A stretch of DNA of 64,000 bases from Chitinophagaceae bacterium (GCA_044348985.1 JBIKRV010000016.1:5725-69724); one strand, 5' to 3'. Counted from the first letter of the stretch, positions 3,449 to 57,605 are shown. Numbers and translations: made by a program. The notes: a model not told the origin generated them from the letters alone.

Positions 3449-4123
3449 TTATTCGTCATCATCTGCTAATTCATGAGCATAATAATATTCTACTTGTTCA
3501 ATGTGTGTCTTCATAAATGCTTCTTTACCACCAAACCAATCTAATACAAACGCCCTTTGAATATTGGTTGACTGATTAGATATAACAGCTTGATAAGAAC
3601 TCCATTTATAAGTTTGAAAATGATTGTGTATTTTATGCTTCAATACATTGGCATGAACATATACAATAAGTCTTGTTAGATGCAATGCAGTATCAACTAT
3701 ACATCTTCGAAACGGGCTATTGAATAAATTTCCTTCCCGATTAAAAAATGTATTAAAGGCTTTTGTATAAGACGTAAACAACGAGTTGAATTGTCTTTCA
3801 ATTAATTTTTCTATTTCTAATTTTTTATCAGTAGCGTCCAAAAATTGTTCCTGCACTTTGGTTCTTTCATCATATGTAAGTGCTTGTAAATATTGGGTAA
3901 TTGCTTGTACAGATTTTATTTGAATAACAAAATGTACATGATTGGGTAATAAAGTCCAAACAAGTGTTTCAGCAAAGGGTGAAATATATTTTTGAAATTT
4001 ATTGAGGAAGAAAATTCTATTCTCATCTGTTCTAAACAATAACTCTTTATTGTTGGTACGTGCAGTAATATGATAAATAAATTCTGCTTCGAAGCTTGCT
4101 TGATATTTAGCATTAATAGGCAT
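3449..4123 (-). CDS. IS200/Y1-type HUH transposase-like protein (REP-associated tyrosine transposase, RAYT-like)
   Basis: HUH motif in LLPNHVHFVIQ. C-terminal YVHANVLKHKI...YKWSSYQ resembles the RAYT YIHxNPV...W.SSY pattern. Flanked by REP-like hairpins. Confidence 0.75.
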   Translation of the reverse strand: MPINAKYQASFEAEFIYHITARTNNKELLFRTDENRIFFLNKFQKYISPFAETLVWTLLPNHVHFVIQIKSVQAITQYLQALTYDERTKVQEQFLDATDKKLEIEKLIERQFNSLFTSYTKAFNTFFNREGNLFNSPFRRCIVDTALHLTRLIVYVHANVLKHKIHNHFQTYKWSSYQAVISNQSTNIQRAFVLDWFGGKEAFMKTHIEQVEYYYAHELADDDE

Positions 4124-23698: not shown

Positions 23699-24367
23699 TT
23701 GGAAAACAATCAATCTCAAATAATCAACCAGCAATCTTTACTTCCTGTAATGGAAAGCTTTTACACCTTACAGGGTGAAGGATTTTATGCTGGAAGAGCA
23801 GCTTATTTTATACGACTTGGTGGTTGCGATGTTGGCTGTGTTTGGTGCGATGTAAAAGAAAGTTGGGATGCGAATGCTCATCCAAAGTTTACTATACAAC
23901 AAATAGTTGACAAAGCAGTTAAAGAATCTGGAATCAGTAACCTCAAACCCTCAACCTTACACCTTAAACCTTTGGTAGTAATTACTGGTGGAGAACCATT
24001 ATTACACAATTTAGATGAACTTACCACTGCATTACAAACAGCAGGATTTGAAACCAATATCGAAACAAGTGGTTCATCGCCTTTAAGTGGCAATTGGAAC
24101 TGGATTTGCTTATCGCCCAAAAAATTTAAAGCTCCATTAAATGAAGTTGTAAAATCAGCCAACGAATTAAAAGTAGTTGTTTTTAATAAACATGATTTCG
24201 ACTGGGCCGAAACCTATGCAGTACAAGTGAATCCAAATTGTAAATTATTCTTGCAAGCCGAGTGGGATAAAAAAGAAATAGTTACTCCACTAATTATAGA
24301 TTATATAAAATCCAATCCAAAATGGGAATTGAGTGTGCAAATTCACAAGTATATTAACGTTCCATAA
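23699..24367 (+). CDS. queE: 7-carboxy-7-deazaguanine synthase (radical SAM)
   Basis: LPVMESFYTLQGEG and FIRLGGCDVGCVWCD motifs. Start uncertain: TTG at 23699 or ATG at 23750. Contains the in-frame heptamer-array insert NLKPSTLHLKP. Confidence 0.85.
   Translation: MENNQSQIINQQSLLPVMESFYTLQGEGFYAGRAAYFIRLGGCDVGCVWCDVKESWDANAHPKFTIQQIVDKAVKESGISNLKPSTLHLKPLVVITGGEPLLHNLDELTTALQTAGFETNIETSGSSPLSGNWNWICLSPKKFKAPLNEVVKSANELKVVVFNKHDFDWAETYAVQVNPNCKLFLQAEWDKKEIVTPLIIDYIKSNPKWELSVQIHKYINVP
23939..23973 (+). repeat. pyrimidine-rich heptanucleotide array inside queE
   Basis: aacctca aaccctc aacctta cacctta aaccttt, five degenerate 7-mers translated in-frame. Confidence 0.7.
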
Positions 24368-46249: not shown

Positions 46250-47237
46250 TGTTGGTATCATTGGAGGTGCAGGCTACACGGGTGGTGAATTAATTAGAAT
46301 ATTGATTAATCATCCAAACGCAAACATTGCTTATGTACAAAGCAAAAGCAATGCAGGTAATTTAATTTCATCGGTTCATGGAGATTTGATTGGAGAAACT
46401 GAATTGACATTTTCAGCTGAACACCATTTTGATATTGATGTTGTTTTTTTATGTGCAGGACATGGTGAAGGAAAGAAATTTGTTGCTGACAACGATATTC
46501 CGTCTGGAGTAAAAATTATTGATATTGGCAACGATTTTCGATTAAAAGCTGATGCCAATTTTAAAGGCAGAAATTTTGTTTACGGCTTACCCGAATTAAA
46601 TAAAGCAGCTATTCAACATGCCAACAGTATTGCCAATCCTGGTTGTTTTGCAACAGCTATTCAATTGGGTTTATTGCCATTGGCAAAAACAGGATTGTTA
46701 ACCGATATTTATACAACAGGTATTACAGGCAGTACAGGTGCTGGACAAAGTTTAAGTGCCACTTCTCATTTTAGTTGGAGAGCCAATAATATTCAGGCTT
46801 ATAAAACATTAACTCATCAGCACTTAGGAGAAATAAAGGAAAGCATAGATGCAATTAGTCTTCGCTTCAATAATCCCCCTTTAGGGAATAGGGGTGACTT
46901 AAGCTTTGTTCCTTGGCGTGGTGATTTTACCAGAGGTATCTTTGTAAGCTCTACACTTGCCTGTGATTTATCTCTTCCAGAGCTAACTGTTTTGTACAAC
47001 GATTTTTATAATGATTCAGCATTTACAACAGTTAGTGAAACAGCTGTACATTTAAAGCAAGTAGTCAATACCAATAAAGCTGTGATTCAATTAGAAAAAG
47101 TAGGTAACAAACTAGTTGTTCATTCTGCAATTGACAATTTATTAAAAGGTGCTTCAGGACAAGCAGTACAGAATATGAATTTAATGTTTGGTCTTGATGA
47201 GAGAGCTGGACTTAATTTAAAAGCAAATTATTTCTGA
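46236..47237 (+). CDS. argC: N-acyl-gamma-glutamyl-phosphate reductase
   Basis: GIIGGAGYTGGELIRIL NAD motif and catalytic NPGCFAT. Contains the in-frame 21-nt element (NPPLGNRGD). Confidence 0.93.
   Translation: MKKVNVGIIGGAGYTGGELIRILINHPNANIAYVQSKSNAGNLISSVHGDLIGETELTFSAEHHFDIDVVFLCAGHGEGKKFVADNDIPSGVKIIDIGNDFRLKADANFKGRNFVYGLPELNKAAIQHANSIANPGCFATAIQLGLLPLAKTGLLTDIYTTGITGSTGAGQSLSATSHFSWRANNIQAYKTLTHQHLGEIKESIDAISLRFNNPPLGNRGDLSFVPWRGDFTRGIFVSSTLACDLSLPELTVLYNDFYNDSAFTTVSETAVHLKQVVNTNKAVIQLEKVGNKLVVHSAIDNLLKGASGQAVQNMNLMFGLDERAGLNLKANYF
46874..46894 (+). repeat. 21-nt GC-rich element, copy A (inside argC)
   Basis: tccccctttagggaatagggg. 20 of 21 positions match copy D. Confidence 0.85.
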
Positions 47238-47308
47238 GGCGAAAGGCAAAAGGTAGAAGGCATATGGTAAAAGACGAAGAGAGGAAGGAGAAGAGGGAAA
47301 AAGCAAGC
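47238..47308 (+). repeat. purine-rich heptanucleotide array (left arm of four-helix-bundle cassette 2)
   Basis: gcgaaag gcaaaag gtagaag gcatatg gtaaaag acgaaga gaggaag gagaaga. It resembles the complement of the right arm at 47789-47870. Confidence 0.65.
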
Positions 47309-47414
47309 ATAAATAGGAGTCGTTTTAAAATAGATGAAAGGCAGAAGGAAAACCCAAATGATTATTTGTTTTCTTTGCCTTAAACCCTAAACCCTCCACC
47401 TCAAACCATTAAAC

Positions 47415-47777
47415 ATGCGTGATTACAAGAAATTAGATGTTTGGAAAAAATCTCACGAAATGTACATGTTCGTTAAAAGAAATATTGCTCCTAAATTTCC
47501 AAAAGAAGAAAGATATGAATTAACATCACAATTATTAAGAGCTGCTTTATCTGTTCCTTTAAACATTGTAGAAGGATGTGGTAGATTTACAGATAAAGAT
47601 TTTGCCAAACTTTTAGATACATCACTAGGTTCTACCAACGAAACTGATTATTGCTGTTTTGCAGCTTTAGAACTGAATTACATTACAAATACTGAATACG
47701 AAACAATTAATAAATTAATCAATGAAGTAAGGGCAATGTTAATTGCGTTTTTAAAACACCTAAGATCTAAAGAATAA
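47415..47777 (+). CDS. four-helix-bundle protein (23S rRNA IVS protein / Avd-like family)
   Basis: 120 aa. YKKLDVWKKSHEMYMFV...FPKEERYELTSQLLRAALSVPLNIVEGCGR is the family signature. Paralogous to 27964..28344. Confidence 0.85.
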   Translation: MRDYKKLDVWKKSHEMYMFVKRNIAPKFPKEERYELTSQLLRAALSVPLNIVEGCGRFTDKDFAKLLDTSLGSTNETDYCCFAALELNYITNTEYETINKLINEVRAMLIAFLKHLRSKE

Positions 47778-47788
47778 CATTACATTTT

Positions 47789-47870
47789 TAACCTTTACAC
47801 CCTCTACCTTAACCCTTTTACCTTACATCTTATACCTTAAACCCTACACCTTAAACCTTTCACCTTTTAT
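47789..47870 (+). repeat. pyrimidine-rich heptanucleotide array (nnACCTT x ~11), right arm of cassette 2
   Basis: aaccttt acaccct ctacctt aaccctt ttacctt acatctt atacctt aaaccct acacctt aaacctt tcacctt. Confidence 0.75.
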
Positions 47871-47873
47871 CTT

Positions 47874-49016
47874 ATGCCTTTATTCGACGTTTACCCACTT
47901 AACCCAATCACCATTACAAGAGCCCATGGTTCTTATGTTTGGGACGATAGCAATACCAGATATTTAGACATGTATGGCGGTCATGCAGTAATTAGCATTG
48001 GTCATACACACCCTTATTGGGTAGAAGCTATTAAAGAGCAAATGGATAAAATATCTTTTTATTCCAATTCAGTTGTTATGCCTATTCAACAGCAATTGGC
48101 TGAAAAATTAGGTAAGGTTTCGGGTAAAGAAGATTATCAATTGTTCTTATGCAACAGTGGTGCCGAGGCCAATGAAAATGCCATTAAACTAGCCAGCTTT
48201 CATAACGGAAGAAAAAAAGTAATTGCTTTCAGTAAATCATTTCATGGTCGTACCTCATTAGCAGTTGCTGCAACCGATAATAAAAATATTGTAGCACCAG
48301 TGAATGAAACGGATAATATTATTTTTCTTCCTTTTAACGATGAAGCTGCATTACAACAATGCTTTAATAAACAAGGCAATGAAATTTCATCTGTAATCAT
48401 CGAAGGTATTCAAGGAGTTGGTGGCATTAATGTTGCCAATAATTCTTTCTTAAAACTCATTAGAACTTTGTGTGATCAATACAATGCAATTTATATTGCT
48501 GATAGTGTACAATGTGGTTACGGACGTAGTGGTAAATTCTTTGCACATGATTATGCAGGCGTAAATGCCGATATTTATTCTATGGCAAAGGGCATGGGCA
48601 ATGGTTTTCCAATTGGTGGTATTTTAATTGCTCCAAAACTGCATGCCAAACATGGTATGTTGGGTACAACTTTTGGTGGCAATCCATTAGCTTGTGCTGC
48701 TGCAATTGCTGTGATAGATGTATTAGAAGATGATAATTTAATTGCTAAATCGAATGAACTGGGTAATTATTTGATGGCTGAATTACAAAAAATTAAAGGC
48801 ATTATCAACGTTCGTGGTCGTGGTTTAATGATAGGTTTTGAAATGACAGAAGCATTAAAAGATTTAAAAAAACAATTGCTATTCGATAGAAAAATATTTA
48901 CAGGAGAAGCCAAACCCAATGTAATTCGATTACTTCCGTCTTTAGCAATTACTAAAGATCAAGTAGATGTATTTTTACAAAACGTACGAGAGTTGGCAGC
49001 AGTTGCAAAAGCATAA
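47874..49016 (+). CDS. argD: acetyl/succinyl-ornithine aminotransferase (class III PLP aminotransferase)
   Basis: Class III aminotransferase layout (GGHAVISIGH, NSGAEANE, DSVQCGYGRSGKFF, SMAKGMGNGFPIGG) within the arg operon. Confidence 0.88.
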   Translation: MPLFDVYPLNPITITRAHGSYVWDDSNTRYLDMYGGHAVISIGHTHPYWVEAIKEQMDKISFYSNSVVMPIQQQLAEKLGKVSGKEDYQLFLCNSGAEANENAIKLASFHNGRKKVIAFSKSFHGRTSLAVAATDNKNIVAPVNETDNIIFLPFNDEAALQQCFNKQGNEISSVIIEGIQGVGGINVANNSFLKLIRTLCDQYNAIYIADSVQCGYGRSGKFFAHDYAGVNADIYSMAKGMGNGFPIGGILIAPKLHAKHGMLGTTFGGNPLACAAAIAVIDVLEDDNLIAKSNELGNYLMAELQKIKGIINVRGRGLMIGFEMTEALKDLKKQLLFDRKIFTGEAKPNVIRLLPSLAITKDQVDVFLQNVRELAAVAKA

Positions 49017-49020
49017 TTTT

Positions 49021-49071
49021 TTATGAACTGAGCATTGGTACAATGCCCAACTGTAGTGGCGTCGCACACTT
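49021..49071 (+). repeat. post-gene interspersed repeat (TTATGAACTG...AACTGTAGTGGCGTCGCACACTT), copy 1
   Basis: Shares ttatgaactg and aactgtagtKgcgtcgcacactt with 56038-56065. Both lie just after a stop codon (argD and argE). Confidence 0.7.
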
Positions 49072-49147
49072 GTACATTAGAATATAGCTGAACTGTTATA
49101 AGCCTCGATTTGTGTCCACATGAATCGAAATAAAAATTTAAAATATT

Positions 49148-50386
49148 ATGATTCAATACAATCGTTTTACACTTTCTAACGGACTAAAAGTTTTGGTGCA
49201 TGAAGATAGCAGCACGCCAATGGCTGTAGTAAATATCATGTACAATGTGGGTGCTAGAGATGAAAACCCCAACCAAACAGGCTTTGCTCATTTGTTTGAA
49301 CACTTGATGTTTGGTGGCAGTATTAACATTCCAGATTATGATGAGCCATTACAACGTGCAGGTGGAGAAAACAATGCTTACACCACCAACGACTTAACCA
49401 ATTATTACTGCACTTTACCAGCAGAAAATATTGAAACTGCATTTTGGTTAGAAAGTGACCGCATGTTGAGTTTGGCTTTTAGTGAAAAGAGTTTAGAAGT
49501 GCAACGCAAAGTGGTTTGCGAAGAGTTTAAAGAACATTACATTAACAAGCCTTATGGCGATGTATGGAATAAAATGCGAAACTTAGCTTACGATGTGCAT
49601 CCTTATAAATGGATGACCATTGGCAAAGAATTAAGCCATGTTGAAAATGCAATGATTGAAGATGTAAAAGCTTTTTTCTTTAAGTTCTATCGTCCATCAA
49701 ATGCAATTTTGGTAGTTGCAGGAAATGTACAAACAGCCGACGTAAAGCGATTGGCAGAAAAATGGTTTGGCGATATTCCGAGTGGAGAAAAATACGAAAG
49801 AAATTTGCCACAAGAACCCAAACAACAACAAGCCAAATTTTTAGAAGTAAAAGCCGATGTACCTTTAGATGCGTTGATTAAAACCTGGCATATCGAAGCT
49901 CGTTTAACCAAAGGCTATTATGTAGCTGATTTAATTACTGAAGTTTTAGGTGGTGGTGGTTCATCTCGTTTGTATCAGTCGTTGGTAAAAGAAAAACAAT
50001 TGTTCAGCAATTTAGATTGTTACCACTTTGGAAGTGTTGAAGCTGGTTTATTGGCCATTGAAGGGAAACTGGTGAAAGGCATAAAAATGGAAGATGCAGA
50101 AAAAGCAGTGCAGGAAGAATTGGAAAAAATAAAGACCACTTTAATTAGCGATGCTGAATTACAAAAAGTAATTAATCGTACCGAAAGTGTGATTACGTTT
50201 GAAGACATGGGTGTTATGAGCCGAGCCAATAGCTTAGCCATGTATGAATTATTAGGTGATGCAGAATTAATGAATACAGAGTTTTCGAAGTATCAAGAAG
50301 TTACTATTCAAGATATTCAGCAGTATGCACAAAAAATATTTGATGACAAAAACAGTAGTACGATACATTACTATAGTAAAAATTAA
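49148..50386 (+). CDS. M16 (pitrilysin) family zinc peptidase, active subunit
   Basis: HxxEH zinc motif HLFEHLMF. 412 aa. Confidence 0.9.
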   Translation: MIQYNRFTLSNGLKVLVHEDSSTPMAVVNIMYNVGARDENPNQTGFAHLFEHLMFGGSINIPDYDEPLQRAGGENNAYTTNDLTNYYCTLPAENIETAFWLESDRMLSLAFSEKSLEVQRKVVCEEFKEHYINKPYGDVWNKMRNLAYDVHPYKWMTIGKELSHVENAMIEDVKAFFFKFYRPSNAILVVAGNVQTADVKRLAEKWFGDIPSGEKYERNLPQEPKQQQAKFLEVKADVPLDALIKTWHIEARLTKGYYVADLITEVLGGGGSSRLYQSLVKEKQLFSNLDCYHFGSVEAGLLAIEGKLVKGIKMEDAEKAVQEELEKIKTTLISDAELQKVINRTESVITFEDMGVMSRANSLAMYELLGDAELMNTEFSKYQEVTIQDIQQYAQKIFDDKNSSTIHYYSKN

Positions 50387-50413
50387 TTTGTAGATTTGGG
50401 AAAATAACATGTT

Positions 50414-50602
50414 ATGTCAATTACAAAAACACAAATCATAGAAGCTATCCAAGCAATGCCTAAAGAGGAGTTTACAGATATTGATGAGGTATTGGAAGAA
50501 ATTGTTTTGTTGGATAAAATTGAACAGGGTTTAGAAGCAATGAGAAAAGGAGAAGTTGTATCGGAAACAGAAGCTCATAAAATAATGGATGCATGGCAAT
50601 AG
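50414..50602 (+). CDS. type II antitoxin (partner of ParE-like toxin)
   Basis: 62 aa, acidic. Overlaps the toxin start by 10 nt. Confidence 0.6.
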   Translation: MSITKTQIIEAIQAMPKEEFTDIDEVLEEIVLLDKIEQGLEAMRKGEVVSETEAHKIMDAWQ

Positions 50603-50904
50603 TAAATTATACGCTACCAGCATTACAGGATTTGAAAGACATACGTGATTACATTGCTAAAGATTCTGTTGTTAACGCAAAACGTTTTATTCAAGCTATA
50701 AAAGACCACATTACAATACTCAATAAATATCCTGAAATAGGTAATCAAGTTTTTCCAAATCGATATAACAACCTAAGACAGTTACTACACAAAGCTTATC
50801 GTATTATTTATTATTATGAAAATGATGTTGTAACTATTATAACAATTCATCATCAATCAAGATTAGTCGAAAACATAAAAGTTGTAAAAGACTTTACAAA
50901 ATAA
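50593..50904 (+). CDS. ParE/RelE family toxin (plasmid-stabilisation type)
   Basis: ALQDLKDIRDYIAKDS...AKRFIQAIKDHITILNKYPEIG...YRIIYYYENDVVTIITIHHQSR is a ParE-like pattern. Confidence 0.8.
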   Translation: MAIVNYTLPALQDLKDIRDYIAKDSVVNAKRFIQAIKDHITILNKYPEIGNQVFPNRYNNLRQLLHKAYRIIYYYENDVVTIITIHHQSRLVENIKVVKDFTK

Positions 50905-50905
50905 A

Positions 50906-52186
50906 ATGACAAACAGAACACAAGCCCCCAACATATTAGATGCAGTTGAATTAGACTTGCAACTAAAACCTATAGAACAATTTAAACTAGATAATCAAGT
51001 GCCTGTTTATGCCTTTGATGGTGGTGCACAAGATGTACTGCTAGTTGAATTTGTTTTTTATGCAGGCAACTGGTACGAGGATAAAAATATTGTTGCCGGC
51101 ACTACCAACTTTATGTTGAAGAATGGCACAAAAAATAAATCGGCTTTTGCTATAAACGATCATTTTGAATTTCATGGTGCTTTCTTAAATAGAAATTGTT
51201 ACAATGAAACTGCAACTGTTACGCTGCACACGTTAAATAAACATTTACCAAAATTATTACCAGTAGTAGCAGAGCTTTTTACAGATAGTATTTTCCCCGA
51301 AGAAGAACTGGCTATTTACAAAAAAAATCAAAACCAGCGTTTAGAAGTTAGTTTAAAAAAATGCGATTTTGTTGCCAACCGTTTAATTGATGAATATGTA
51401 TATGGGTTGCATCATCCTTATGGAAAATATACTTCTACTGTAGATTATGATGCTTTGCAAAGAGAAGAATTGGTAAAGTTTTATCAAGAATTTTATACAC
51501 ATGGCAAGTGCATGATTTTTGTTGCAGGAAAATTACCTGCCGATATACAAGAGCAACTGAATAACAACTTTGGTCAATTACCTTTCAGTCCTCAAAAAAA
51601 CAGTGAAAGAGCTTACAATATTGCACCAGCAACAGAGAAAAAGCAGCTTATTATTAACGATGAAAATGGTGTGCAAGGTGCTATACGTTTGGCTCGTCCT
51701 TTTCCGAACAGGCACCATCCTGATTTTATGAGAGTGCAAATACTGAACAATATTTTTGGTGGCTTTTTTGGCAGTCGTTTAATGAGTAATATAAGAGAAG
51801 ATAAAGGTTATACCTATGGCATACATTCTTATGTACAAAACCACATTCATGAATCTGCCTGGATGATTAGTACAGAAGCTGGCCGTGCTGTTTGTGAAGC
51901 AACCATTGAGGAAACCTACAAAGAAATGGGCATTCTAAGAGATGAGTTGGTAGATGAAGAAGAACTAAACTTAGTGAGAAACTTTATGATGGGTAGCTTA
52001 TTAGGCGATTTAGATGGACCATTTCAAATTATTGCACGTTGGAAAAACTATATACTAAATAATCTTACTGAACAATATTTTTATAACTCTATCGAAACCA
52101 TAAAAACCATTAGTGCCGAAGAATTACAAGACTTGGCTAAGAAATATTTAAACCCTGAAGATTTTTATGAATTGACGGTAGTGTAA
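50906..52186 (+). CDS. M16 family peptidase-like protein, non-catalytic partner subunit
   Basis: M16 fold length and pattern without an HxxEH motif. Paired with 49148..50386. Confidence 0.8.
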   Translation: MTNRTQAPNILDAVELDLQLKPIEQFKLDNQVPVYAFDGGAQDVLLVEFVFYAGNWYEDKNIVAGTTNFMLKNGTKNKSAFAINDHFEFHGAFLNRNCYNETATVTLHTLNKHLPKLLPVVAELFTDSIFPEEELAIYKKNQNQRLEVSLKKCDFVANRLIDEYVYGLHHPYGKYTSTVDYDALQREELVKFYQEFYTHGKCMIFVAGKLPADIQEQLNNNFGQLPFSPQKNSERAYNIAPATEKKQLIINDENGVQGAIRLARPFPNRHHPDFMRVQILNNIFGGFFGSRLMSNIREDKGYTYGIHSYVQNHIHESAWMISTEAGRAVCEATIEETYKEMGILRDELVDEEELNLVRNFMMGSLLGDLDGPFQIIARWKNYILNNLTEQYFYNSIETIKTISAEELQDLAKKYLNPEDFYELTVV

Positions 52187-52198
52187 AATTAACAAATT

Positions 52199-52561
52199 AT
52201 GCAACAGTATATTACAAGAATACTTATCACCGCTGCAGCGGCTCTCATTGCTTCGTGGATGTTGAAAGGTGTAGAAATAGACAGTAGTTTAACTGCTATT
52301 TTAGTAGCTGTTGTATTAGGCTTATTGAACACTTTTGTAAAGCCAGTTTTAATATTACTAACCATTCCTATTACTGTATTTACGTTAGGCTTATTTCTGT
52401 TGGTAATTAATATTGTTATTGTAAAGTGGGTAGCCACATTGGTTCCAGGATTTACTGTTGCCAATTGGTGGGCTGCTTTGTGGTTTAGTATAATTGTATC
52501 TGTTTTTTCTACAGTTATTCAAAGCTTAGCCAAAACAAATAATATAGAAAATGAGGAGTAA
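52199..52561 (+). CDS. phage-holin-family / DUF360-like small membrane protein
   Basis: 120 aa with four TM segments. FVKPVLILLTIPITVFTLGLFLLVIN is typical of the PF04020 family. Confidence 0.65.
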   Translation: MQQYITRILITAAAALIASWMLKGVEIDSSLTAILVAVVLGLLNTFVKPVLILLTIPITVFTLGLFLLVINIVIVKWVATLVPGFTVANWWAALWFSIIVSVFSTVIQSLAKTNNIENEE

Positions 52562-52575
52562 AGAATAAAGCGTTG

Positions 52576-52632
52576 AAGCCGATATCTATCGGCTGTGCGA
52601 TACTTCGAGTTAGCTCAGTACAGGCTACACAA
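52576..52632 (+). repeat. ~60-nt interspersed repeat with AGCCGATAnCTATCGGCT palindrome, copy 2
   Basis: aagccgatatctatcggctgtgcgatacttcgagttagctcagtacaggct, matching 1994-2054. Confidence 0.7.
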
Positions 52633-52688
52633 TTGTTCAATAGTAATTCTGAAGTAGGCAAAATAATATTTATAAAAAACACAAATAA

Positions 52689-52710
52689 TCCCCCCTTTAG
52701 GGGATAGGAG
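52689..52710 (+). repeat. 21-nt GC-rich element, copy B (ends 1 nt before argF' ATG)
   Basis: tcccccctttaggggataggag, preceded by aataa as in copy A. Confidence 0.8.
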
Positions 52711-52711
52711 T

Positions 52712-53710
52712 ATGAAACAATTTATTTCTGTAAACGATGTTGCAAACATCAATGAATTGGTAGCAAAAGCATTGGCGTATAAAGCCAATCCTTTTGTTGA
52801 CAAAACCTTGGGAGCCAATAAACGTATTGGTTTATTGTTTTTAAATCCAAGTTTGCGTACACGTTTAAGTACACAGGTTGCTGCCAGTAATTTAGGCATG
52901 GAAGCCATTGTGTTCAATGTAGATAAAGAAGGCTGGGCATTGGAGTTTGAAGAAGGAGCAATTATGAGTGGCACAACTGTTGAACACATTAAAGATGCTG
53001 CACCAATTTTGGGGAATTATTTTGATATTTTAGCTATCAGAACATTTCCTTCTTTGGCTAACAAAGAAGATGATTACAGCGAAATGTACATTAAGCAATT
53101 TATAAAATATGCAGGTGTACCTGTGGTTAGTTTAGAGAGTGCAACCTTACACCCTTTACAATCACTTACAGATATCATTACAATTAGAGAAGATTTGAAC
53201 CTTAAACCTCAAACCTTAAACCTTAAACCTCGTATTGTTCTCACTTGGGCTCCACATGTAAAGCCTTTGCCACAATGTGTTGCCAATAGTTTTGCTCAAT
53301 GGATCAATGCATGGGGAGAAGCAGATTTTGTTATCACCCATCCTGAAGATTATGAACTGAGTGAAGAATTTACCAAAGGAGCTACCATAATACATAACCA
53401 AGATGAAGCCTTGAAAAATGCAGATTATGTGTATGTAAAAAACTGGAGTACGTTTACCGATTATGGCAAGATCTATGAAAATAATCCACGTTGGATGATG
53501 ACTAATGATAAGTTGGCTTTAACCAATAATGCCAAAGTAATGCACTGCTTACCAGTGAGAAGAAATGTTGAATTGAGTGATGAAGTTTTAGATGGACCTA
53601 ATAGTTTGGTAACACAAGAAGCAGGTAACAGAGTTTGGGCAGCACAGACAGTATTGAGTGAACTGCTAAGCCCCTATCCCCTAAAGGTGGACGATAACGT
53701 TCTACTATAA
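52712..53710 (+). CDS. argF': N-succinyl/N-acetyl-ornithine carbamoyltransferase
   Basis: FLNPSLRTRLS carbamoyl-phosphate motif and HCLPVRRN motif, within a Bacteroidetes-type arg operon. Carries an internal heptamer array and a C-terminal extension from element copy C. Confidence 0.88.
   Translation: MKQFISVNDVANINELVAKALAYKANPFVDKTLGANKRIGLLFLNPSLRTRLSTQVAASNLGMEAIVFNVDKEGWALEFEEGAIMSGTTVEHIKDAAPILGNYFDILAIRTFPSLANKEDDYSEMYIKQFIKYAGVPVVSLESATLHPLQSLTDIITIREDLNLKPQTLNLKPRIVLTWAPHVKPLPQCVANSFAQWINAWGEADFVITHPEDYELSEEFTKGATIIHNQDEALKNADYVYVKNWSTFTDYGKIYENNPRWMMTNDKLALTNNAKVMHCLPVRRNVELSDEVLDGPNSLVTQEAGNRVWAAQTVLSELLSPYPLKVDDNVLL
53197..53231 (+). repeat. tandem heptanucleotide repeat (AACCTTA x ~4.9) inside argF'
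   Basis: aacctta aacctca aacctta aacctta aacctc, translated as NLKPQTLNLKP. Confidence 0.85.
53671..53691 (-). repeat. 21-nt GC-rich element, copy C (reverse; in argF' 3' end)
   Basis: The reverse complement is tccacctttaggggatagggg, matching copy D at 20 of 21 positions. Translated as SPYPLKVD. Confidence 0.85.
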
Positions 53711-53720
53711 CGATTCTTTT

Positions 53721-54917
53721 ATGAAAGAAAATATGTTTTACGGAGCAAGCAATTTAATTTTTCAGCGTGCTGAAGAATTGAGGAATCGTATGACATCTGC
53801 TGAAGAATTATTGTGGAAGCAAATTCATATAAATGAGTGGAAACAGAAATTTAGGAGACAACATCCTATAGCAAACTATGTAGTTGATTTTTATTGTCAT
53901 GCTTTAAAGCTGGTGATTGAACTGGATGGCGGAATTCACGAAGTAGAAGATGTAAAAAAATATGACGAGTATAGGGAAGCACATTTGAAAGAATTAGGAT
54001 TAACTGTACTTCGATTTAAGAACGAAGAAGTGTTTAAAGAAAATAAATCAGTGCTAAAGACCATTGAAAATGTTGTGAATCAGCTTAAAAGTCCCCCTTT
54101 AGGGGATAGGGGCAAGGAGCAATTATACGTTATAAAAATTGGTGGAAATATTATAGATGATGAAAGTAAACTTGCGTCATTCTTACAATCATTTGCTACA
54201 ATTAAAGGAAAGAAAATATTAATCCATGGTGGTGGAAAATTGGCTACTAAAGTTGCAGAAGGAATGAACATTCAGCAACAAATGGTTGATGGAAGAAGAA
54301 TTACAGATGCCGAAACATTGAAGGTTGTTACCATGGTGTACGCAGGTTTTATCAATAAAAATATTGTTGCACAATTGCAAGCCAGTAACTGCAATGCTAT
54401 TGGACTGACAGGAGCAGATGGCAACGCAATACTTGCTCACAAACGTGTTTCTAGCTCCCCTTTAGGGGTTGGGGGCATTGATTATGGTTTTGTAGGAGAT
54501 GTTAATGCTGTAAATGCAGATTTACTGAACAGTTTATTGCAACAAAACATTGCAGTTGTTTTAGCTCCAATCACACACAATAAAGAAGGACAATTACTAA
54601 ACACCAATGCCGATACCATTGCCCAGGAAACAGCTAAAGCAATGAGTGCTTTATATGAAACTTCATTGATTTATTCTTTTGAAAAAGCTGGTGTATTGCT
54701 AGATGTGGAAGATGAAACAAGTGTAATTAACTCCATCAATCCAGCATCATATGAGTCTTTAAAAGAAAAGGGGGCAATTTTCGCTGGTATGATTCCAAAA
54801 TTAGACAATGCTTTTGCTGCTGTTGAAAGTGGTGTAAGCAAAGTGATTATTGGCAAAGCAGAACAATTACAACAACTGATAGATGGTACAGCTGGAACAA
54901 CCATCAACAACAAATAA
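53721..54917 (+). CDS. argB: DUF559 (Vsr-like endonuclease fold) domain fused in-frame to acetylglutamate kinase
   Basis: Residues 1-~125 carry LLWKQI...KFRRQHPIANYVVDFYCHALKLVIELDGGIHE...LGLTVLRFKNEEV (DUF559). Residues ~133-398 carry LYVIKIGGNIID, ILIHGGGK and DYGFVGDV (ArgB). There is no stop or canonical start codon between them. Confidence 0.85.
   Translation: MKENMFYGASNLIFQRAEELRNRMTSAEELLWKQIHINEWKQKFRRQHPIANYVVDFYCHALKLVIELDGGIHEVEDVKKYDEYREAHLKELGLTVLRFKNEEVFKENKSVLKTIENVVNQLKSPPLGDRGKEQLYVIKIGGNIIDDESKLASFLQSFATIKGKKILIHGGGKLATKVAEGMNIQQQMVDGRRITDAETLKVVTMVYAGFINKNIVAQLQASNCNAIGLTGADGNAILAHKRVSSSPLGVGGIDYGFVGDVNAVNADLLNSLLQQNIAVVLAPITHNKEGQLLNTNADTIAQETAKAMSALYETSLIYSFEKAGVLLDVEDETSVINSINPASYESLKEKGAIFAGMIPKLDNAFAAVESGVSKVIIGKAEQLQQLIDGTAGTTINNK
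54092..54112 (+). repeat. 21-nt GC-rich element, copy D (DUF559/ArgB junction)
   Basis: tccccctttaggggatagggg, translated as SPPLGDRG. Confidence 0.85.
54456..54475 (+). repeat. 21-nt GC-rich element family, copy E (inside ArgB domain)
   Basis: tcccctttaggggttggggg, translated as SSPLGVGG. Confidence 0.75.
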
Positions 54918-56037: not shown

Positions 56038-56065
56038 TTATGAACTGTAGTTGCGTCGCACACTT
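56038..56065 (+). repeat. post-gene interspersed repeat, copy 2
   Basis: ttatgaactgtagttgcgtcgcacactt; compare 49021-49071. Confidence 0.7.
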
Positions 56066-56095
56066 TTGGTTTTTGAATAAAACTGAACTTTTTTT

Positions 56096-56171
56096 CACCG
56101 CAGAGAACAGGAGTTAAAGAGCATACGCAGAGACTCAGCGAAAACCTCTGCTTCTCTTGTACTCTGCGGTA
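56096..56171. repeat. CGCAGAG/CTCTGCG palindromic intergenic element upstream of argH
   Basis: accgcagag (56097-56105) pairs with ctctgcggt (56162-56170), with internal cgcagagac / cctctgc. Confidence 0.65.
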
Positions 56172-56189
56172 AAATTAAAATGATAAAAA

Positions 56190-57521
56190 ATGAAACTTTG
56201 GCAAAAAGATAAAGCATCATTAAAAGAAGTGGAAACATTTACGGTAGGTAAAGATCCTGAGTTTGATTTAATGCTTGCTCCTTTTGATGTTTTAGGAAAT
56301 ATAGCTCATGCTAAAATGTTAGCAACAGTTGGCTTATTAACCCAATTAGAAGCAGAGCAATTAACAGAAGAACTAAAAAAAATATACGCTCAAATTCCAA
56401 ATCCCAAATTCCAAATTCCCCAAGGCGTTGAAGACATTCATTCTTATGTGGAATTTCTACTCACAGAAAAGCTCGGTGACATTGGTAAAAAAATTCACTC
56501 AGCCCGTAGCAGAAATGATCAGGTTTTGGTAGATGTAAAACTCTTTTTAAGAAATGAAATTGAAGAAATGGTGAATGCCATTCAACCATTCTTTCAATTA
56601 TTGCAACAACAAAGCGAAGCTTTTAAAAATCATTTATTACCCGGCTATACACATTTACAAATAGCTATGCCCAGCAGTTTTGGTTTGTGGTTTGGAGCCT
56701 ATGCAGAGAGTTTGGTAGATGATGTTACTACCTTACATGCAGCCTATCAGGTAGTGAATAAAAATCCTTTAGGCAGTGCTGCAGGTTATGGTTCTTCTTT
56801 TCCCATCAACAGAACATTAACCACACAATTATTGGGCTTTGCTGATTTGAATTACAATGTGGTGTATGCACAAATGGGCAGGGGAAAAGCTGAACGAATT
56901 ACAGCACAGGCATTAGCCAATGTGGCTGATACATTGAGCAGGTTAAGTATGGATATGACTTTGTACTTAAACCAGAATTTCGACTTCGTTTCTTTTCCAA
57001 CAGAGTTAACAACAGGCAGCAGTATTATGCCTCATAAAAAAAATCCCGATGTATTTGAATTAATAAGAAGTCATTGCAACAGAATAAAAGCATTGCCCAA
57101 TGAAATTACCCTAATGACTACCAATTTGCCAAGTGGTTATCATAGAGATTTACAATTATTGAAAGAACATTTGTTTCCTGCATTTCAAACATTGAAAGAT
57201 TGTATTAATATGGCTGCATTAATGCTCAGCAATATTTCTGTAAAAGAAAATATTGTAGCCGATGAAAAGTACAAATACATTTTTAGTGTGGAAGAAGTCA
57301 ATAAACTCGTGTTACAAGGCGTACCATTCAGAGATGCGTACAAACAAGTTGGTCTTGCTATTGAAGCCAATCAATTTACTTATTCAACTGAAGTAAACCA
57401 TACACACAAAGGCAGTATTGGCAATTTATGTACTGAACAAATTAATGGTATGATGCAAACTACATTAGGCAAGTTTGAATTCGAAAAAGTACATGCGGCA
57501 ATTGATAGCTTGTTGAAATAA
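56190..57521 (+). CDS. argH: argininosuccinate lyase
   Basis: Fumarate-lyase signature GSSIMPHKKNPD and SARSRNDQV. 443 aa. Confidence 0.96.
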   Translation: MKLWQKDKASLKEVETFTVGKDPEFDLMLAPFDVLGNIAHAKMLATVGLLTQLEAEQLTEELKKIYAQIPNPKFQIPQGVEDIHSYVEFLLTEKLGDIGKKIHSARSRNDQVLVDVKLFLRNEIEEMVNAIQPFFQLLQQQSEAFKNHLLPGYTHLQIAMPSSFGLWFGAYAESLVDDVTTLHAAYQVVNKNPLGSAAGYGSSFPINRTLTTQLLGFADLNYNVVYAQMGRGKAERITAQALANVADTLSRLSMDMTLYLNQNFDFVSFPTELTTGSSIMPHKKNPDVFELIRSHCNRIKALPNEITLMTTNLPSGYHRDLQLLKEHLFPAFQTLKDCINMAALMLSNISVKENIVADEKYKYIFSVEEVNKLVLQGVPFRDAYKQVGLAIEANQFTYSTEVNHTHKGSIGNLCTEQINGMMQTTLGKFEFEKVHAAIDSLLK

Positions 57522-57523
57522 TG

Positions 57524-57600
57524 AACCACAGGGCAAAGAAGCAAGGAAGTTTAACTTATAAATCTCTGCGTTAACTCCCCATCTCTGTGCCTCTGCGGTA
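57524..57600. repeat. CTCTGYG-type intergenic element downstream of argH / terC
   Basis: gaaccacaggg ... atctctgcg ... atctctgtgcctctgcggt. Confidence 0.55.
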
Positions 57601-57605
57601 AGTAC

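What the first reader, a model, noticed from the sequence alone, without database searches (positions are those of the whole stretch)
46874..54475. 21-nt GC-rich mini-element scattered five times through the arginine operon, three or four times in-frame inside enzymes
There are five copies of consensus TCCCCCTTTAGGGGATAGGGG. Copy A (46874-46894, +) lies in argC and reads NNPPLGNRGD. Copy B (52689-52710, +) ends 1 nt before the argF' ATG. Copy C (53671-53691, -) lies in the last 13 codons of argF' and reads SPYPLKVD. Copy D (54092-54112, +) sits at the DUF559/ArgB junction and reads SPPLGDRG. Copy E (54456-54475, +) lies in the ArgB domain and reads SSPLGVGG. The element is a CCCC-TTTA-GGGG mini-hairpin plus a second GGGG run, which makes 3 x 7 nt, and it stands out sharply in an A/T-rich background. 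In the forward orientation, two of the three frames hit TAG (ccc ctt TAG; agg gga TAG). All three forward intragenic copies use the single open frame (CCC CCT TTA GGG GAT AGG GG). That pattern is expected if insertions land in any frame and only non-disruptive ones survive. I did not spot the motif elsewhere in the 64 kb, so it is strongly clustered in one operon. The in-frame colonisation of essential genes recalls Rickettsia palindromic elements. I know of no described equivalent in Bacteroidota.
Basis: partly seen in the sequence, partly recalled or inferred. Interest (0 to 1): 0.75.

Follow-up and report, generated by a model that had tools for sequence, protein, structure and literature searches.

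The report
21-nt hairpin repeat tied to DUF559 nuclease
A 21-base GC-rich hairpin repeat found across Bacteroidota has been written in frame into arginine-biosynthesis enzymes here; two of the five copies are the inverted ends of a small DUF559 nuclease gene fused to ArgB, and that nuclease probably spreads or maintains the repeat.

Summary
Five copies of Y-CCCC-TTYA-GGGG-WTR-GGGG-Y (32-43 bits each; best score in shuffles 13) lie at the stated coordinates, and there are no others in the 64 kb.

The copies are not all equivalent:
- C (-) and D (+) are 23-nt inverted repeats. They bracket a DUF559 (Vsr-like) endonuclease ORF that sits exactly in the argF'/argB junction and reads through into ArgB.
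- B abuts the argF' start codon.
- A and E are 7-8-residue inserts in ArgC and ArgB, absent from solved homologues; E lies in a low-confidence loop of the AlphaFold model.

The repeat is dispersed across Bacteroidota (more than 120 genomic stretches), with about half of the copies inside long ORFs.

New results:
- In 80 metagenomic DUF559 loci chosen without regard to the repeat, it is 20-50 times denser within 250 nt of the gene, in the -/+ orientation, and the two arms match each other.
- Arg operons with the DUF559 insert hold 5-10 copies; Terrimonas-type operons without it hold 0-1.

Best reading: a REP/RAYT-like system whose enzyme is a DUF559 nuclease. No description was found in Rfam or in the searchable literature. 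The mechanism is inferred, not shown.

The parts
46874..46894 (+). Copy A: solo 21-nt repeat in frame in argC (NNPPLGNRG).
   Evidence: 33.5 bits. The same site is occupied in L002, L003 and L004. Terrimonas-type ArgC has a shorter loop there (PDSD/PGSD). T. maritima 1VKN has an 8-residue gap there.
52689..52711 (+). Copy B: solo repeat in the argF' 5' leader, ending 1 nt before the ATG at 52712.
   Evidence: 32.4 bits. It is conserved but degenerate in L001. There is no start codon in the 11 open codons upstream. The arrangement GGGG-N-ATG recurs in 15 of 244 copies.
53670..53692 (-). Copy C: left inverted arm of the DUF559 unit. It overlaps the last codons of argF'.
   Evidence: I1: 23 nt, 96% complementary to D. 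The argF' tail is read in three different frames of this arm in five genomes. Empty-site orthologues end ...SEILRSNG*.
53721..54089 (+). DUF559 (Vsr-like PD-(D/E)XK) endonuclease coding part, with no stop codon; it reads through into argB.
   Evidence: Pfam PF04480, E 2.9e-31. PDB 3HRL, E 4e-20. dN/dS is 0.09 and 0.03 against L001 and L004. The D56/E67/D69/H73 block is nearly invariant in 20 orthologues.
54091..54113 (+). Copy D: right inverted arm. It encodes the linker SPPLGDRG between DUF559 and ArgB.
   Evidence: 41.3 bits. Nearly invariant in five genomes, including third codon positions (one T-to-C and the A/G variant position differ), while neighbouring pS is 0.7-0.9. pLDDT is below 50 and the segment is coil at residues 127-129. 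P0013 keeps the argB ATG directly after it.
54114..54917 (+). ArgB (acetylglutamate kinase) domain. It has no ATG, GTG or TTG of its own upstream of the KIGG motif.
   Evidence: Pfam PF00696, sequence, PDB 2BTY. Empty-site orthologues start MDKLFIIKIGG and overlap argF' by 8 nt.
54454..54476 (+). Copy E: solo repeat in frame in an ArgB loop (SSPLGVGG).
   Evidence: 42.9 bits. Absent from L001, which is 92% identical in DNA. There is a 7-residue gap in 2BTY. pLDDT is below 50 and the segment is coil at residues 245-253.

Best explanation
The five copies belong to a family of 21-nt hairpin repeats, Y-CCCC-TTYA-GGGG-WTR-GGGG-Y, that is found across Bacteroidota. The family is genetically coupled to DUF559 (Vsr-like PD-(D/E)XK) endonuclease genes in the way REP sequences are coupled to RAYT transposases.

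In this lineage, one DUF559 gene bracketed by two inverted copies (C and D) sits exactly in the formerly overlapping argF'/argB junction. The DUF559 ORF has no stop codon, so it is translated through arm D into ArgB.

Inferred steps: the nuclease recognises the whole 21-nt unit and, by nicking or cutting followed by repair, copies it into nearby DNA and keeps existing copies at consensus. Because the unit is 7 codons long it never shifts the frame. Selection removes copies that bring a stop codon or land in structured parts of a protein. What remains is copies in loops, at protein termini and in leaders. Long residence of the nuclease gene in the operon has filled the arg genes with solo copies (A, B and E here; up to 10 in relatives).
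For: Shown:
1. C and D are inverted repeats flanking the DUF559 part.
2. In 80 metagenomic DUF559 loci picked by protein only, 30 have the repeat within 250 nt and 17 have the -/+ pair. Density is 1.45/kb within 250 nt against 0.00-0.08/kb further out (six copies in about 140 kb). Orientation is right(+) 30, left(-) 19, wrong 7.
3. The two arms of one locus differ by a median of 2/21. Arms of different loci differ by a median of 7/21.
4. Arg operons with DUF559 (window, L001-L004) hold 33 copies in 45.5 kb and none in 94.5 kb of flanks. Syntenic Terrimonas-type operons without DUF559 (L205-L208) hold 1, 0, 1 and 0. L006, where DUF559 is secondarily deleted, holds 1. T. pollutisoli does carry the repeat elsewhere (L038).
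5. Solo copies turn over quickly and recur at the same sites. E and the argH N-terminal copy differ between the window and L001. The empty state of the argH site (DKASL) is shared by the window and L205-L208, yet that site is filled in both L001 and L003. Copies in one ArgB loop sit in different frames in L003 and L004.
6. The DUF559 domain is under purifying selection, dN/dS 0.03-0.09.
7. The repeat's DNA stays at consensus across genomes whose synonymous sites are saturated, and decayed copies occur where DUF559 is absent (L208 SPSGIVS).
8. The second G run is as conserved in solo copies as the hairpin is. That fits recognition by a protein.
Against: - No biochemistry exists for this DUF559 clade. 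A PD-(D/E)XK nuclease alone is not known to insert 21-nt units.
- No target-site duplication or clean 21-nt boundary is seen in the two freshest events. Both are +15 nt with nearby substitutions.
- Stand-alone DUF559 genes show no halo of solo copies beyond their two arms.
- The operon comparison is five loci against five from two clades, so it is not phylogenetically independent.
- Most copies in genomes are far from any DUF559 in the 8-kb stretches held.
- The strong polarity of copies at CDS borders is not predicted by this model.
Confidence: 0.5

Rival explanations
1. The repeat is a host cis-element that marks gene borders on DNA or mRNA. An inverted pair around an intergenic spacer could form a roughly 20-bp stem used for RNase III processing, transcript stabilisation or coupling of translation. 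DUF559 genes would merely tend to sit in, or be tolerated in, such bracketed spacers.
For: The G-rich end abuts CDS starts (12 cases at exactly 1 nt) or stops (17 cases with the stop inside the repeat). The C-rich end faces the spacer. Neighbouring copies are -+ in 61 cases against 4 that are +-. Copies at fixed sites keep their DNA sequence over deep divergence.
Against: Positions inside genes vary between close relatives. Solo copies lack a pairing partner yet conserve all 21 nt. The hairpin is only 4-5 bp and folds no better than shuffles. Operons of the same pathway work with 0-1 copies. The base rate of bracketed spacers is low (one in this 64-kb window), which cannot give 17-30 of 80 DUF559 loci. 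Part of the start/stop proximity follows from stops inside the repeat and from the way ORFs were called.
Confidence: 0.2
2. DUF559 here is a very-short-patch-type mismatch nickase. Its cognate site is the repeat, perhaps methylated by an unlinked cytosine methyltransferase. It protects the GC-rich sites from C-to-T decay and drives near-cognate sequences toward consensus. The copies themselves arise by another route.
For: DUF559 has the Vsr-like fold. A DUF559 protein of Caulobacter (VsrA) is functionally linked to a GC-rich methylated motif, although its gene is unlinked to the methylase gene (PMC12907096). The repeat persists unchanged in 34-46% GC genomes and decays where DUF559 is absent. 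Both fresh gains look like partial rewriting of a weakly similar sequence (TCATTA to TCCCCTTTA).
Against: Repair of mismatches cannot add 15-21 nt. No methyltransferase gene lies next to the DUF559 gene in the window or in the four related arg loci whose genes were listed. It does not explain why the nuclease gene is bracketed by an inverted pair.
Confidence: 0.15
3. The repeat is an ordinary miniature transposable element moved in trans by an unidentified transposase. DUF559 genes and arg genes are only frequent landing sites.
For: It is dispersed and multi-copy, shows presence/absence polymorphism, and inverted pairs are common.
Against: The unit gained or lost is a single 15-21-nt copy, not a pair with a conserved interior. 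Spacers between paired copies are unrelated, 12-175 nt long, and contain real gene starts. No target duplication is seen. No transposase lies in the window near the copies. The matched arms and -/+ geometry around DUF559 are not explained.
Confidence: 0.1
4. The peptides are ancestral, selected parts of the enzymes, or the matches are chance or compositional.
For: A, C and D occupy the same sites in several genera.
Against: Zero matches are expected by chance. The argF' tail is read in three different frames of the same DNA. Orthologues at 80% identity and solved structures lack the segments. Codons are G/C-ending in a 34.5% GC genome and are conserved at silent positions.
Confidence: 0.02

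Closest known systems
REP sequences and their RAYT transposases (REPtrons/REPINs; Nunvar 2010, Bertels & Rainey 2011 PMC3116915, Di Nocera 2013 PMC3733652)
   Same: Both are 20-40-nt GC-rich hairpin repeats dispersed in hundreds of copies. In both, an enzyme gene is bracketed by two inverted cognate copies and the flanking copies match the gene's own variant. REPs can also overlap stop codons and lie inside ORFs (PMC3733652).
   Different: The enzyme here is a DUF559 PD-(D/E)XK nuclease, not an IS200-like Y1 transposase. There is no GTAG or CGTC tag. About half of the copies are intragenic and in frame. The unit gained or lost is a singlet, not a REPIN doublet with a fixed spacer. The phylum is Bacteroidota.
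Rickettsia palindromic elements (Ogata et al. 2000/2002; from my own knowledge and as summarised in PMC3733652)
   Same: Both are palindromic repeats inserted in frame into housekeeping proteins, tolerated in surface regions, and add peptide segments with no apparent function.
   Different: Rickettsia elements are roughly 100-150 bp (30-50 residues), have no associated enzyme gene, and occur in Rickettsia. The element here is 21 nt (7 residues) and is linked to DUF559.
Small dispersed repeats of Nostoc/Anabaena (Elhai et al. 2008, Genome Res 18:1484; paper not held, cited from memory)
   Same: Both are 21-27-nt hairpin-forming units that appear or disappear singly between related genomes, with no target duplication and no transposase of their own. 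Both occur in genomes that also carry heptamer tandem repeats.
   Different: The cyanobacterial repeats have a different sequence. As far as I recall they are mostly intergenic or nested in other repeats and have no associated nuclease. Here there is a gene association and in-frame coding copies.
Free-standing homing endonucleases of the Vsr-like EDxHD family (I-Bth0305I; from my own knowledge) and Vsr/VsrA repair nickases (PMC12907096)
   Same: Both involve a small Vsr-fold nuclease gene lying between host genes, with sequence-specific action on a GC-rich site.
   Different: Homing copies the nuclease gene into an empty allele; it does not scatter 21-nt sites. Vsr enzymes repair mismatches and their genes are not bracketed by their own sites.

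Membership tests
REP/RAYT system | Short (20-40 nt) imperfect palindromic repeat present in many dispersed copies. | tested here: met
   The core is 21 nt with a CCCC/GGGG hairpin. The scan stopped at 120 genomic stretches.
REP/RAYT system | Enzyme gene flanked by inverted cognate repeats. | tested here: met
   Window arms C and D. 17-30 of 80 unbiased DUF559 loci show the same arrangement. The two arms of a locus match each other.
REP/RAYT system | The enzyme is an IS200/IS605-like Y1 (HUH) transposase. | tested here: not met
   The flanked ORF is Pfam DUF559 with the Vsr-like fold.
REP/RAYT system | Conserved GTAG (or CGTC) tetranucleotide at one end. | tested here: not met
   The logo has no such tag.
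Rickettsia palindromic elements | In-frame insertion into functional ORFs at permissive sites. | tested here: met
Rickettsia palindromic elements | Length of about 100-150 bp and sequence homology to RPE families. | tested here: not met
   The unit is 21 nt. The consensus is unrelated to RPE families (my own knowledge); no RPE consensus was available to align.
MITE | Terminal inverted repeats around a conserved non-coding interior, with a target-site duplication. | tested here: not met
   Spacers between -+ copies are 12-175 nt, unrelated, and contain gene starts. No duplication is seen at filled versus empty junctions.
Homing endonuclease gene | The nuclease gene is present or absent at an otherwise conserved site. 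| tested here: met
   Filled site (window, L001-L004) against empty site with an 8-nt argF'/argB overlap (L205-L208), in the same synteny.
Homing endonuclease gene | The enzyme cleaves the empty allele and is copied into it. | not testable with these tools
   This needs cleavage assays on the ...GAGATATTACGATCAAATGGATAAAC... junction.
Vsr-type very-short-patch repair | Vsr-like PD-(D/E)XK fold with catalytic residues kept. | tested here: met
   PF04480; 3HRL at E 4e-20. D56, E67, D69 and H73 are kept in at least 90% of 20 orthologues.
Vsr-type very-short-patch repair | Cognate cytosine methyltransferase and T:G nicking in the site. | not testable with these tools
   No methylase lies next to the gene in the window. 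Unlinked pairs are known (PMC12907096). Methylome data and enzyme assays are needed.
Described RNA families (Rfam 15) | Match at or near the gathering score. | tested here: not met
   Only chance-level hits in the window. In nine related loci, only hits far below the gathering scores (at most 38 bits against 65-117), to plant miRNA-precursor, Wolbachia sRNA and IS009 models.

The most novel reading that the evidence does not exclude
DUF559 endonucleases, a large family with no assigned function, are the enzymes of a previously unrecognised kind of ultra-small mobile DNA. A 21-nt, 7-codon hairpin unit is written by the nuclease into nearby DNA, including essential genes, and is kept at consensus by it. 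Fusion of one such nuclease to ArgB, and its long residence in the operon, turned the arginine operon of a Chitinophagaceae clade into a hot spot that keeps adding 7-residue loops to its enzymes.
Probability: 0.35. Interest if true: 0.85.

Novelty: new variant of a known kind. Interest (0 to 1): 0.72.

Why it matters
If the link is causal, four things follow:
- It gives a function to DUF559, a widespread domain of unknown function.
- It adds a second, unrelated enzyme class (a PD-(D/E)XK nuclease) to the REP/RAYT way of life.
- It shows that REP-like DNA can be a steady source of small in-frame insertions in core metabolic enzymes of free-living Bacteroidota, not only in reduced intracellular genomes.
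- It offers a clean natural experiment (arg operons with and without the nuclease insert) and a short defined substrate for biochemistry.

There is also a practical point. These copies create spurious N- and C-terminal extensions, fused genes and odd 'PLGDGG/PFRGWG/PNP*' tails in annotations of Bacteroidota genomes.

Tried and rejected
1. Arg-specific operator or riboswitch-like element. All copies in the first five loci lay in arg operons, which suggested a regulatory site for a DUF559-ArgB 'trigger enzyme'. Rejected: about 110 of 120 genomic hits are not near arg genes, copy positions vary between relatives, and operons without DUF559 have 0-1 copies.
2. Pairs as the mobile unit (MITE or REPIN-like). 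Rejected: the spacers are unrelated and contain gene starts, and close relatives differ by single copies.
3. Rfam scans of the window and of nine related loci found nothing above chance or near threshold.
4. Literature searches on DUF559, the DNA motif, the peptides and RPE-like elements in Bacteroidetes gave no description. PLGVRG hits are protease substrates. Elhai 2008 is not held.
5. Aligning the GNAT-argG intergenic regions to decide whether bracketed spacers are homologous to unbracketed ones failed, because the sequences are too divergent.
6. Folding of single copies gives a hairpin of about -9.5 kcal/mol, no better than shuffles, so structure alone is not informative.
7. A halo of solo copies around stand-alone DUF559 genes was looked for and not found beyond 250 nt.

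Full report
**The observation**

A search for TCCCCCTTTAGGGGATAGGGG with up to 3 mismatches finds four copies, against 0 expected in shuffles. The hairpin core finds the fifth. A weight matrix built from 218 copies in other genomes scores the five at 32-43 bits. Nothing else in the 64 kb exceeds 12 bits, and the best score in shuffles is 13.3. The window has 34.5% GC. Gene identities were confirmed with Pfam. The gene order is GNAT, argG, argC, a 23S_rRNA_IVP ORF, argD, two M16 peptidases with a ParE toxin between them, a holin-like ORF, argF', DUF559-argB, argE, argH.

Copies C (53670-53692, -) and D (54091-54113, +) are 23-nt inverted repeats, 96% complementary. They bracket the DUF559 coding part (53721-54089).
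- That ORF has no stop codon and runs through arm D into ArgB.
- There is no ATG, GTG or TTG between the DUF559 part and the catalytic KIGG motif of ArgB.
- In P0013 the argB ATG is still present directly after the arm.

**The fusion is old**

More than 100 protein clusters from Chitinophagaceae carry PF04480+PF00696 at 65-90% identity, always with the linker S-P-P-L-G-D-(G/R)-G. The DUF559 part is under purifying selection as strong as ArgB:

| Comparison | DUF559 dN/dS | ArgB dN/dS |
|---|---|---|
| window vs L001 | 0.09 | 0.11 |
| window vs L004 | 0.03 | 0.13 |

The 21 nt of arm D are nearly identical in five genomes, third codon positions included, while neighbouring synonymous sites are saturated (pS 0.7-0.9). 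The domain matches PDB 3HRL (E 4e-20), an 'endonuclease-like protein' without known function.

**Empty site**

Terrimonas-type Chitinophagaceae (ArgB about 80% identical to that of L006, a Chitinophagaceae relative) have a 261-residue ArgB. Its gene overlaps argF' by 8 nt, in the same synteny as L003. The unit [arm - DUF559 - arm] therefore occupies exactly the argF'/argB junction. No target duplication is visible. In L006 most of the DUF559 has been deleted again, leaving its C-terminal tail and arm D, so ArgB does not need it.

After SE(I/L)L, the argF' tail is read in three different frames of arm C in five genomes: SPYPLKV..., KPLSPKGGR*, SPHPLKGS*, KAPIP*. The DNA is what is conserved, not the peptide.

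**Solo copies are insertions**

In 20 ArgB orthologues, motif-coded peptides (SPLGDGG, PPSGDGG, PLQGMGA, SPFRGRG and others) appear and disappear at five or more sites, mostly adding 6-7 residues.
- E is a 7-residue gap against T. maritima NAGK 2BTY.
- A is an 8-residue gap against ArgC 1VKN.
- In an AlphaFold model of the fusion (mean pLDDT 76), the segments encoded by D and E are coil with pLDDT below 50.

The window and its closest relative L001 (92% DNA identity) differ by single copies:
- E is present only in the window.
- L001 has a copy at the argH N-terminus that the window lacks.
- L001 has a copy in an argF' loop where the window has a heptamer array.

The empty argH state (DKASL) is shared by the window and four Terrimonas-type genomes, yet the site is filled in both L001 and L003. 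In one ArgB loop, L003 and L004 carry copies in different frames. So insertions recur in the same permissive loops. The two freshest events are +15 nt with adjacent substitutions, not clean 21-nt insertions. This remains unexplained.

**The family**

Most are Chitinophagaceae and Ferruginibacter; others are Paludibacter, Mucilaginibacter and Sphingobacteriales. About 110 of the 120 are not near arg genes.

The logo of 244 copies gives Y-CCCC-TTYA-GGGG-WTR-GGGG-Y, with a weaker A-R-Y upstream. The flank on the C side is AT-rich and G-poor.

Of 247 copies, 119 lie in open frames of at least 600 nt. Of the 87 forward copies among these:
- 73 use the P-L-G-D/V-G/R-G frame.
- All 5 in the CCC-CTT-xAG frame have the TTC variant, which removes TAG. 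TTC is 18% overall.
- All 9 in the P-F-R-G frame avoid ATA/TTA.

**Polarity at gene borders**

Neighbouring copies are -+ in 61 cases, +- in 4, -- in 14 and ++ in 13. A simple ORF caller gives the following:
- The G-rich end abuts a gene start (12 cases at exactly 1 nt, as in copy B) or a gene stop (17 cases with the stop inside the repeat, giving xPNP*).
- The C-rich end faces 15-200 nt of spacer.
- Sense copies inside genes pile up in the first tenth of the ORF. Antisense copies pile up in the last tenth.

Part of this follows from stops within the repeat and from the way ORFs were called. The -+ excess and the flank composition do not depend on ORF calling. I have no firm explanation for this polarity.

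**Link to DUF559**

A metagenome search with a DUF559 alignment returned 80 loci chosen without regard to the repeat.
- 30 have the repeat (up to 3 mismatches) within 250 nt, and 17 have the canonical -/+ pair.
- Others carry related hairpin inverted repeats of up to 51 nt, including in 65% GC DNA.
- Density is 1.45/kb within 250 nt and 0.00-0.08/kb from 250 to 1500 nt. Orientation is right(+) 30, left(-) 19, wrong 7.
- The two arms of one locus differ by a median of 2 of 21 positions. Arms of different loci differ by a median of 7.

This is the anatomy of a RAYT gene and its REPs, with a different enzyme.

**Why the arg operon**

| Loci | Copies in arg span | Copies in flanks |
|---|---|---|
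| DUF559-containing arg operons (window, L001-L004) | 33 in 45.5 kb | 0 in 94.5 kb |
| Four DUF559-less operons (L205-L208) | 1, 0, 1, 0 | 0 |
| L006 (DUF559 secondarily deleted) | 1 | 0 |

The DUF559-less operons also show decayed relics, such as L208 SPSGIVS in the argF' loop. One of those genomes, T. pollutisoli, does carry the repeat elsewhere (L038). About 5 of the 120 random genomic hits fall in arg operons, which make up roughly 0.2% of a genome.

Stand-alone DUF559 genes have no such halo. I attribute the halo to local action plus the long residence of this copy in a conserved operon. The flanking genes differ between genomes, so they are recent neighbours. Tethering of the nascent nuclease domain during translation of ArgB is a further, speculative, contribution.

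**Mechanism**

Shown: the gene-repeat association, the matching of arms, the correlation with operon copy number, the turnover of single copies, avoidance of stops, and DNA-level conservation.

Inferred: that the nuclease recognises the 21-nt unit, and that its nicking or cutting with repair copies and homogenises the unit.

Rivals:
- A host border element acting on mRNA.
- A VSP-type repair nickase that preserves a (possibly methylated) site. This is suggested by the Caulobacter DUF559 protein VsrA (PMC12907096).
- An ordinary MITE moved in trans.
- An ancestral peptide.

The last is excluded. The others are weighed in the report sections.

**Comparison and novelty**

The element works like REP/RAYT, but two defining features are not met: there is no Y1 transposase and no GTAG/CGTC tag. 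It affects proteins as Rickettsia palindromic elements do, but it is five to seven times shorter and has an associated gene. In size and behaviour it resembles the cyanobacterial small dispersed repeats (cited from memory). Rfam has no matching family. The held literature has 25 papers that mention DUF559, and none of the 22 listed titles or abstracts concerns repeats. I rate it a new variant of a known kind.

**Limits**
- The genome scan was truncated.
- The ORF calls are crude.
- The operon comparison covers two clades only.
- Nothing here tests enzyme activity.

Noticed in passing
window 47381-47395, 47775-47882, 53198-53230, 23939-23972, 56391-56419; L206 18760-18788: Heptamer tandem arrays form a second small-repeat system. 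AACCTTA-type arrays bracket the 23S_rRNA_IVP (four-helix-bundle) ORF at 47415-47777. The same heptamer (x4.7) lies in frame inside argF' (LNLKPQTLNLKPR, a 6-residue gap against B. fragilis 1JS1). That is the very loop where L001 carries a 21-nt hairpin copy. CAAATTC x4 lies inside argH. An IVP ORF in L206 also has a heptamer array (CAGGTAA x4) beside it.
   Followed up: partly
window 49049-49071 and 56043-56065: A third repeat family. AACTGTAGTKGCGTCGCACACTT occurs twice, after argD and after argE (0 expected by chance). Its core GTGTGCGACGCNAC occurs in 11 of the 208 fetched Bacteroidota loci. Its function is unknown.
   Followed up: partly
window 54114-54140: argB has lost its own start codon (AAG where P0013 has ATG). 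In this genome ArgB can therefore be made only as a DUF559 fusion or from a non-standard start.
   Followed up: partly
window 49148-52561: The arg operon is interrupted between argD and argF' by two M16 peptidase genes, a ParE-family toxin ORF (50593-50904) and a holin-like (PF04020) ORF. Relatives (L002-L004, L205-L208) lack this block, and L001 has a different upstream context.
   Followed up: no
L023 (reverse strand, about 3810-3850); L165, L199, L137: Related hairpin variants with longer stems flank other DUF559 genes, in one case in the same MAG as L004. An example is CCCCTAACCCCTCTCCAAAGGAGAGGGG, which gives peptides like PNPSPKERG or GEGLGVR. The 21-nt element is therefore one member of a wider set of hairpins linked to DUF559.
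   Followed up: partly
L054, L102, L087, L066, L007 (Paludibacter): In Paludibacter the copies carry extra conserved flanks (GGGG-AATTATGCAAGT... and ...AATACTAACTTAGTT-CCCC). This suggests a longer composite element in that genus.
   Followed up: no
window 56093-56174 and 57575-57601: There are short repeats containing CTCTGCGGTAA around argH, and an inverted pair at 56093-56113 / 56154-56174. L003 has similar TCTGCG repeats upstream of argH.
   Followed up: no
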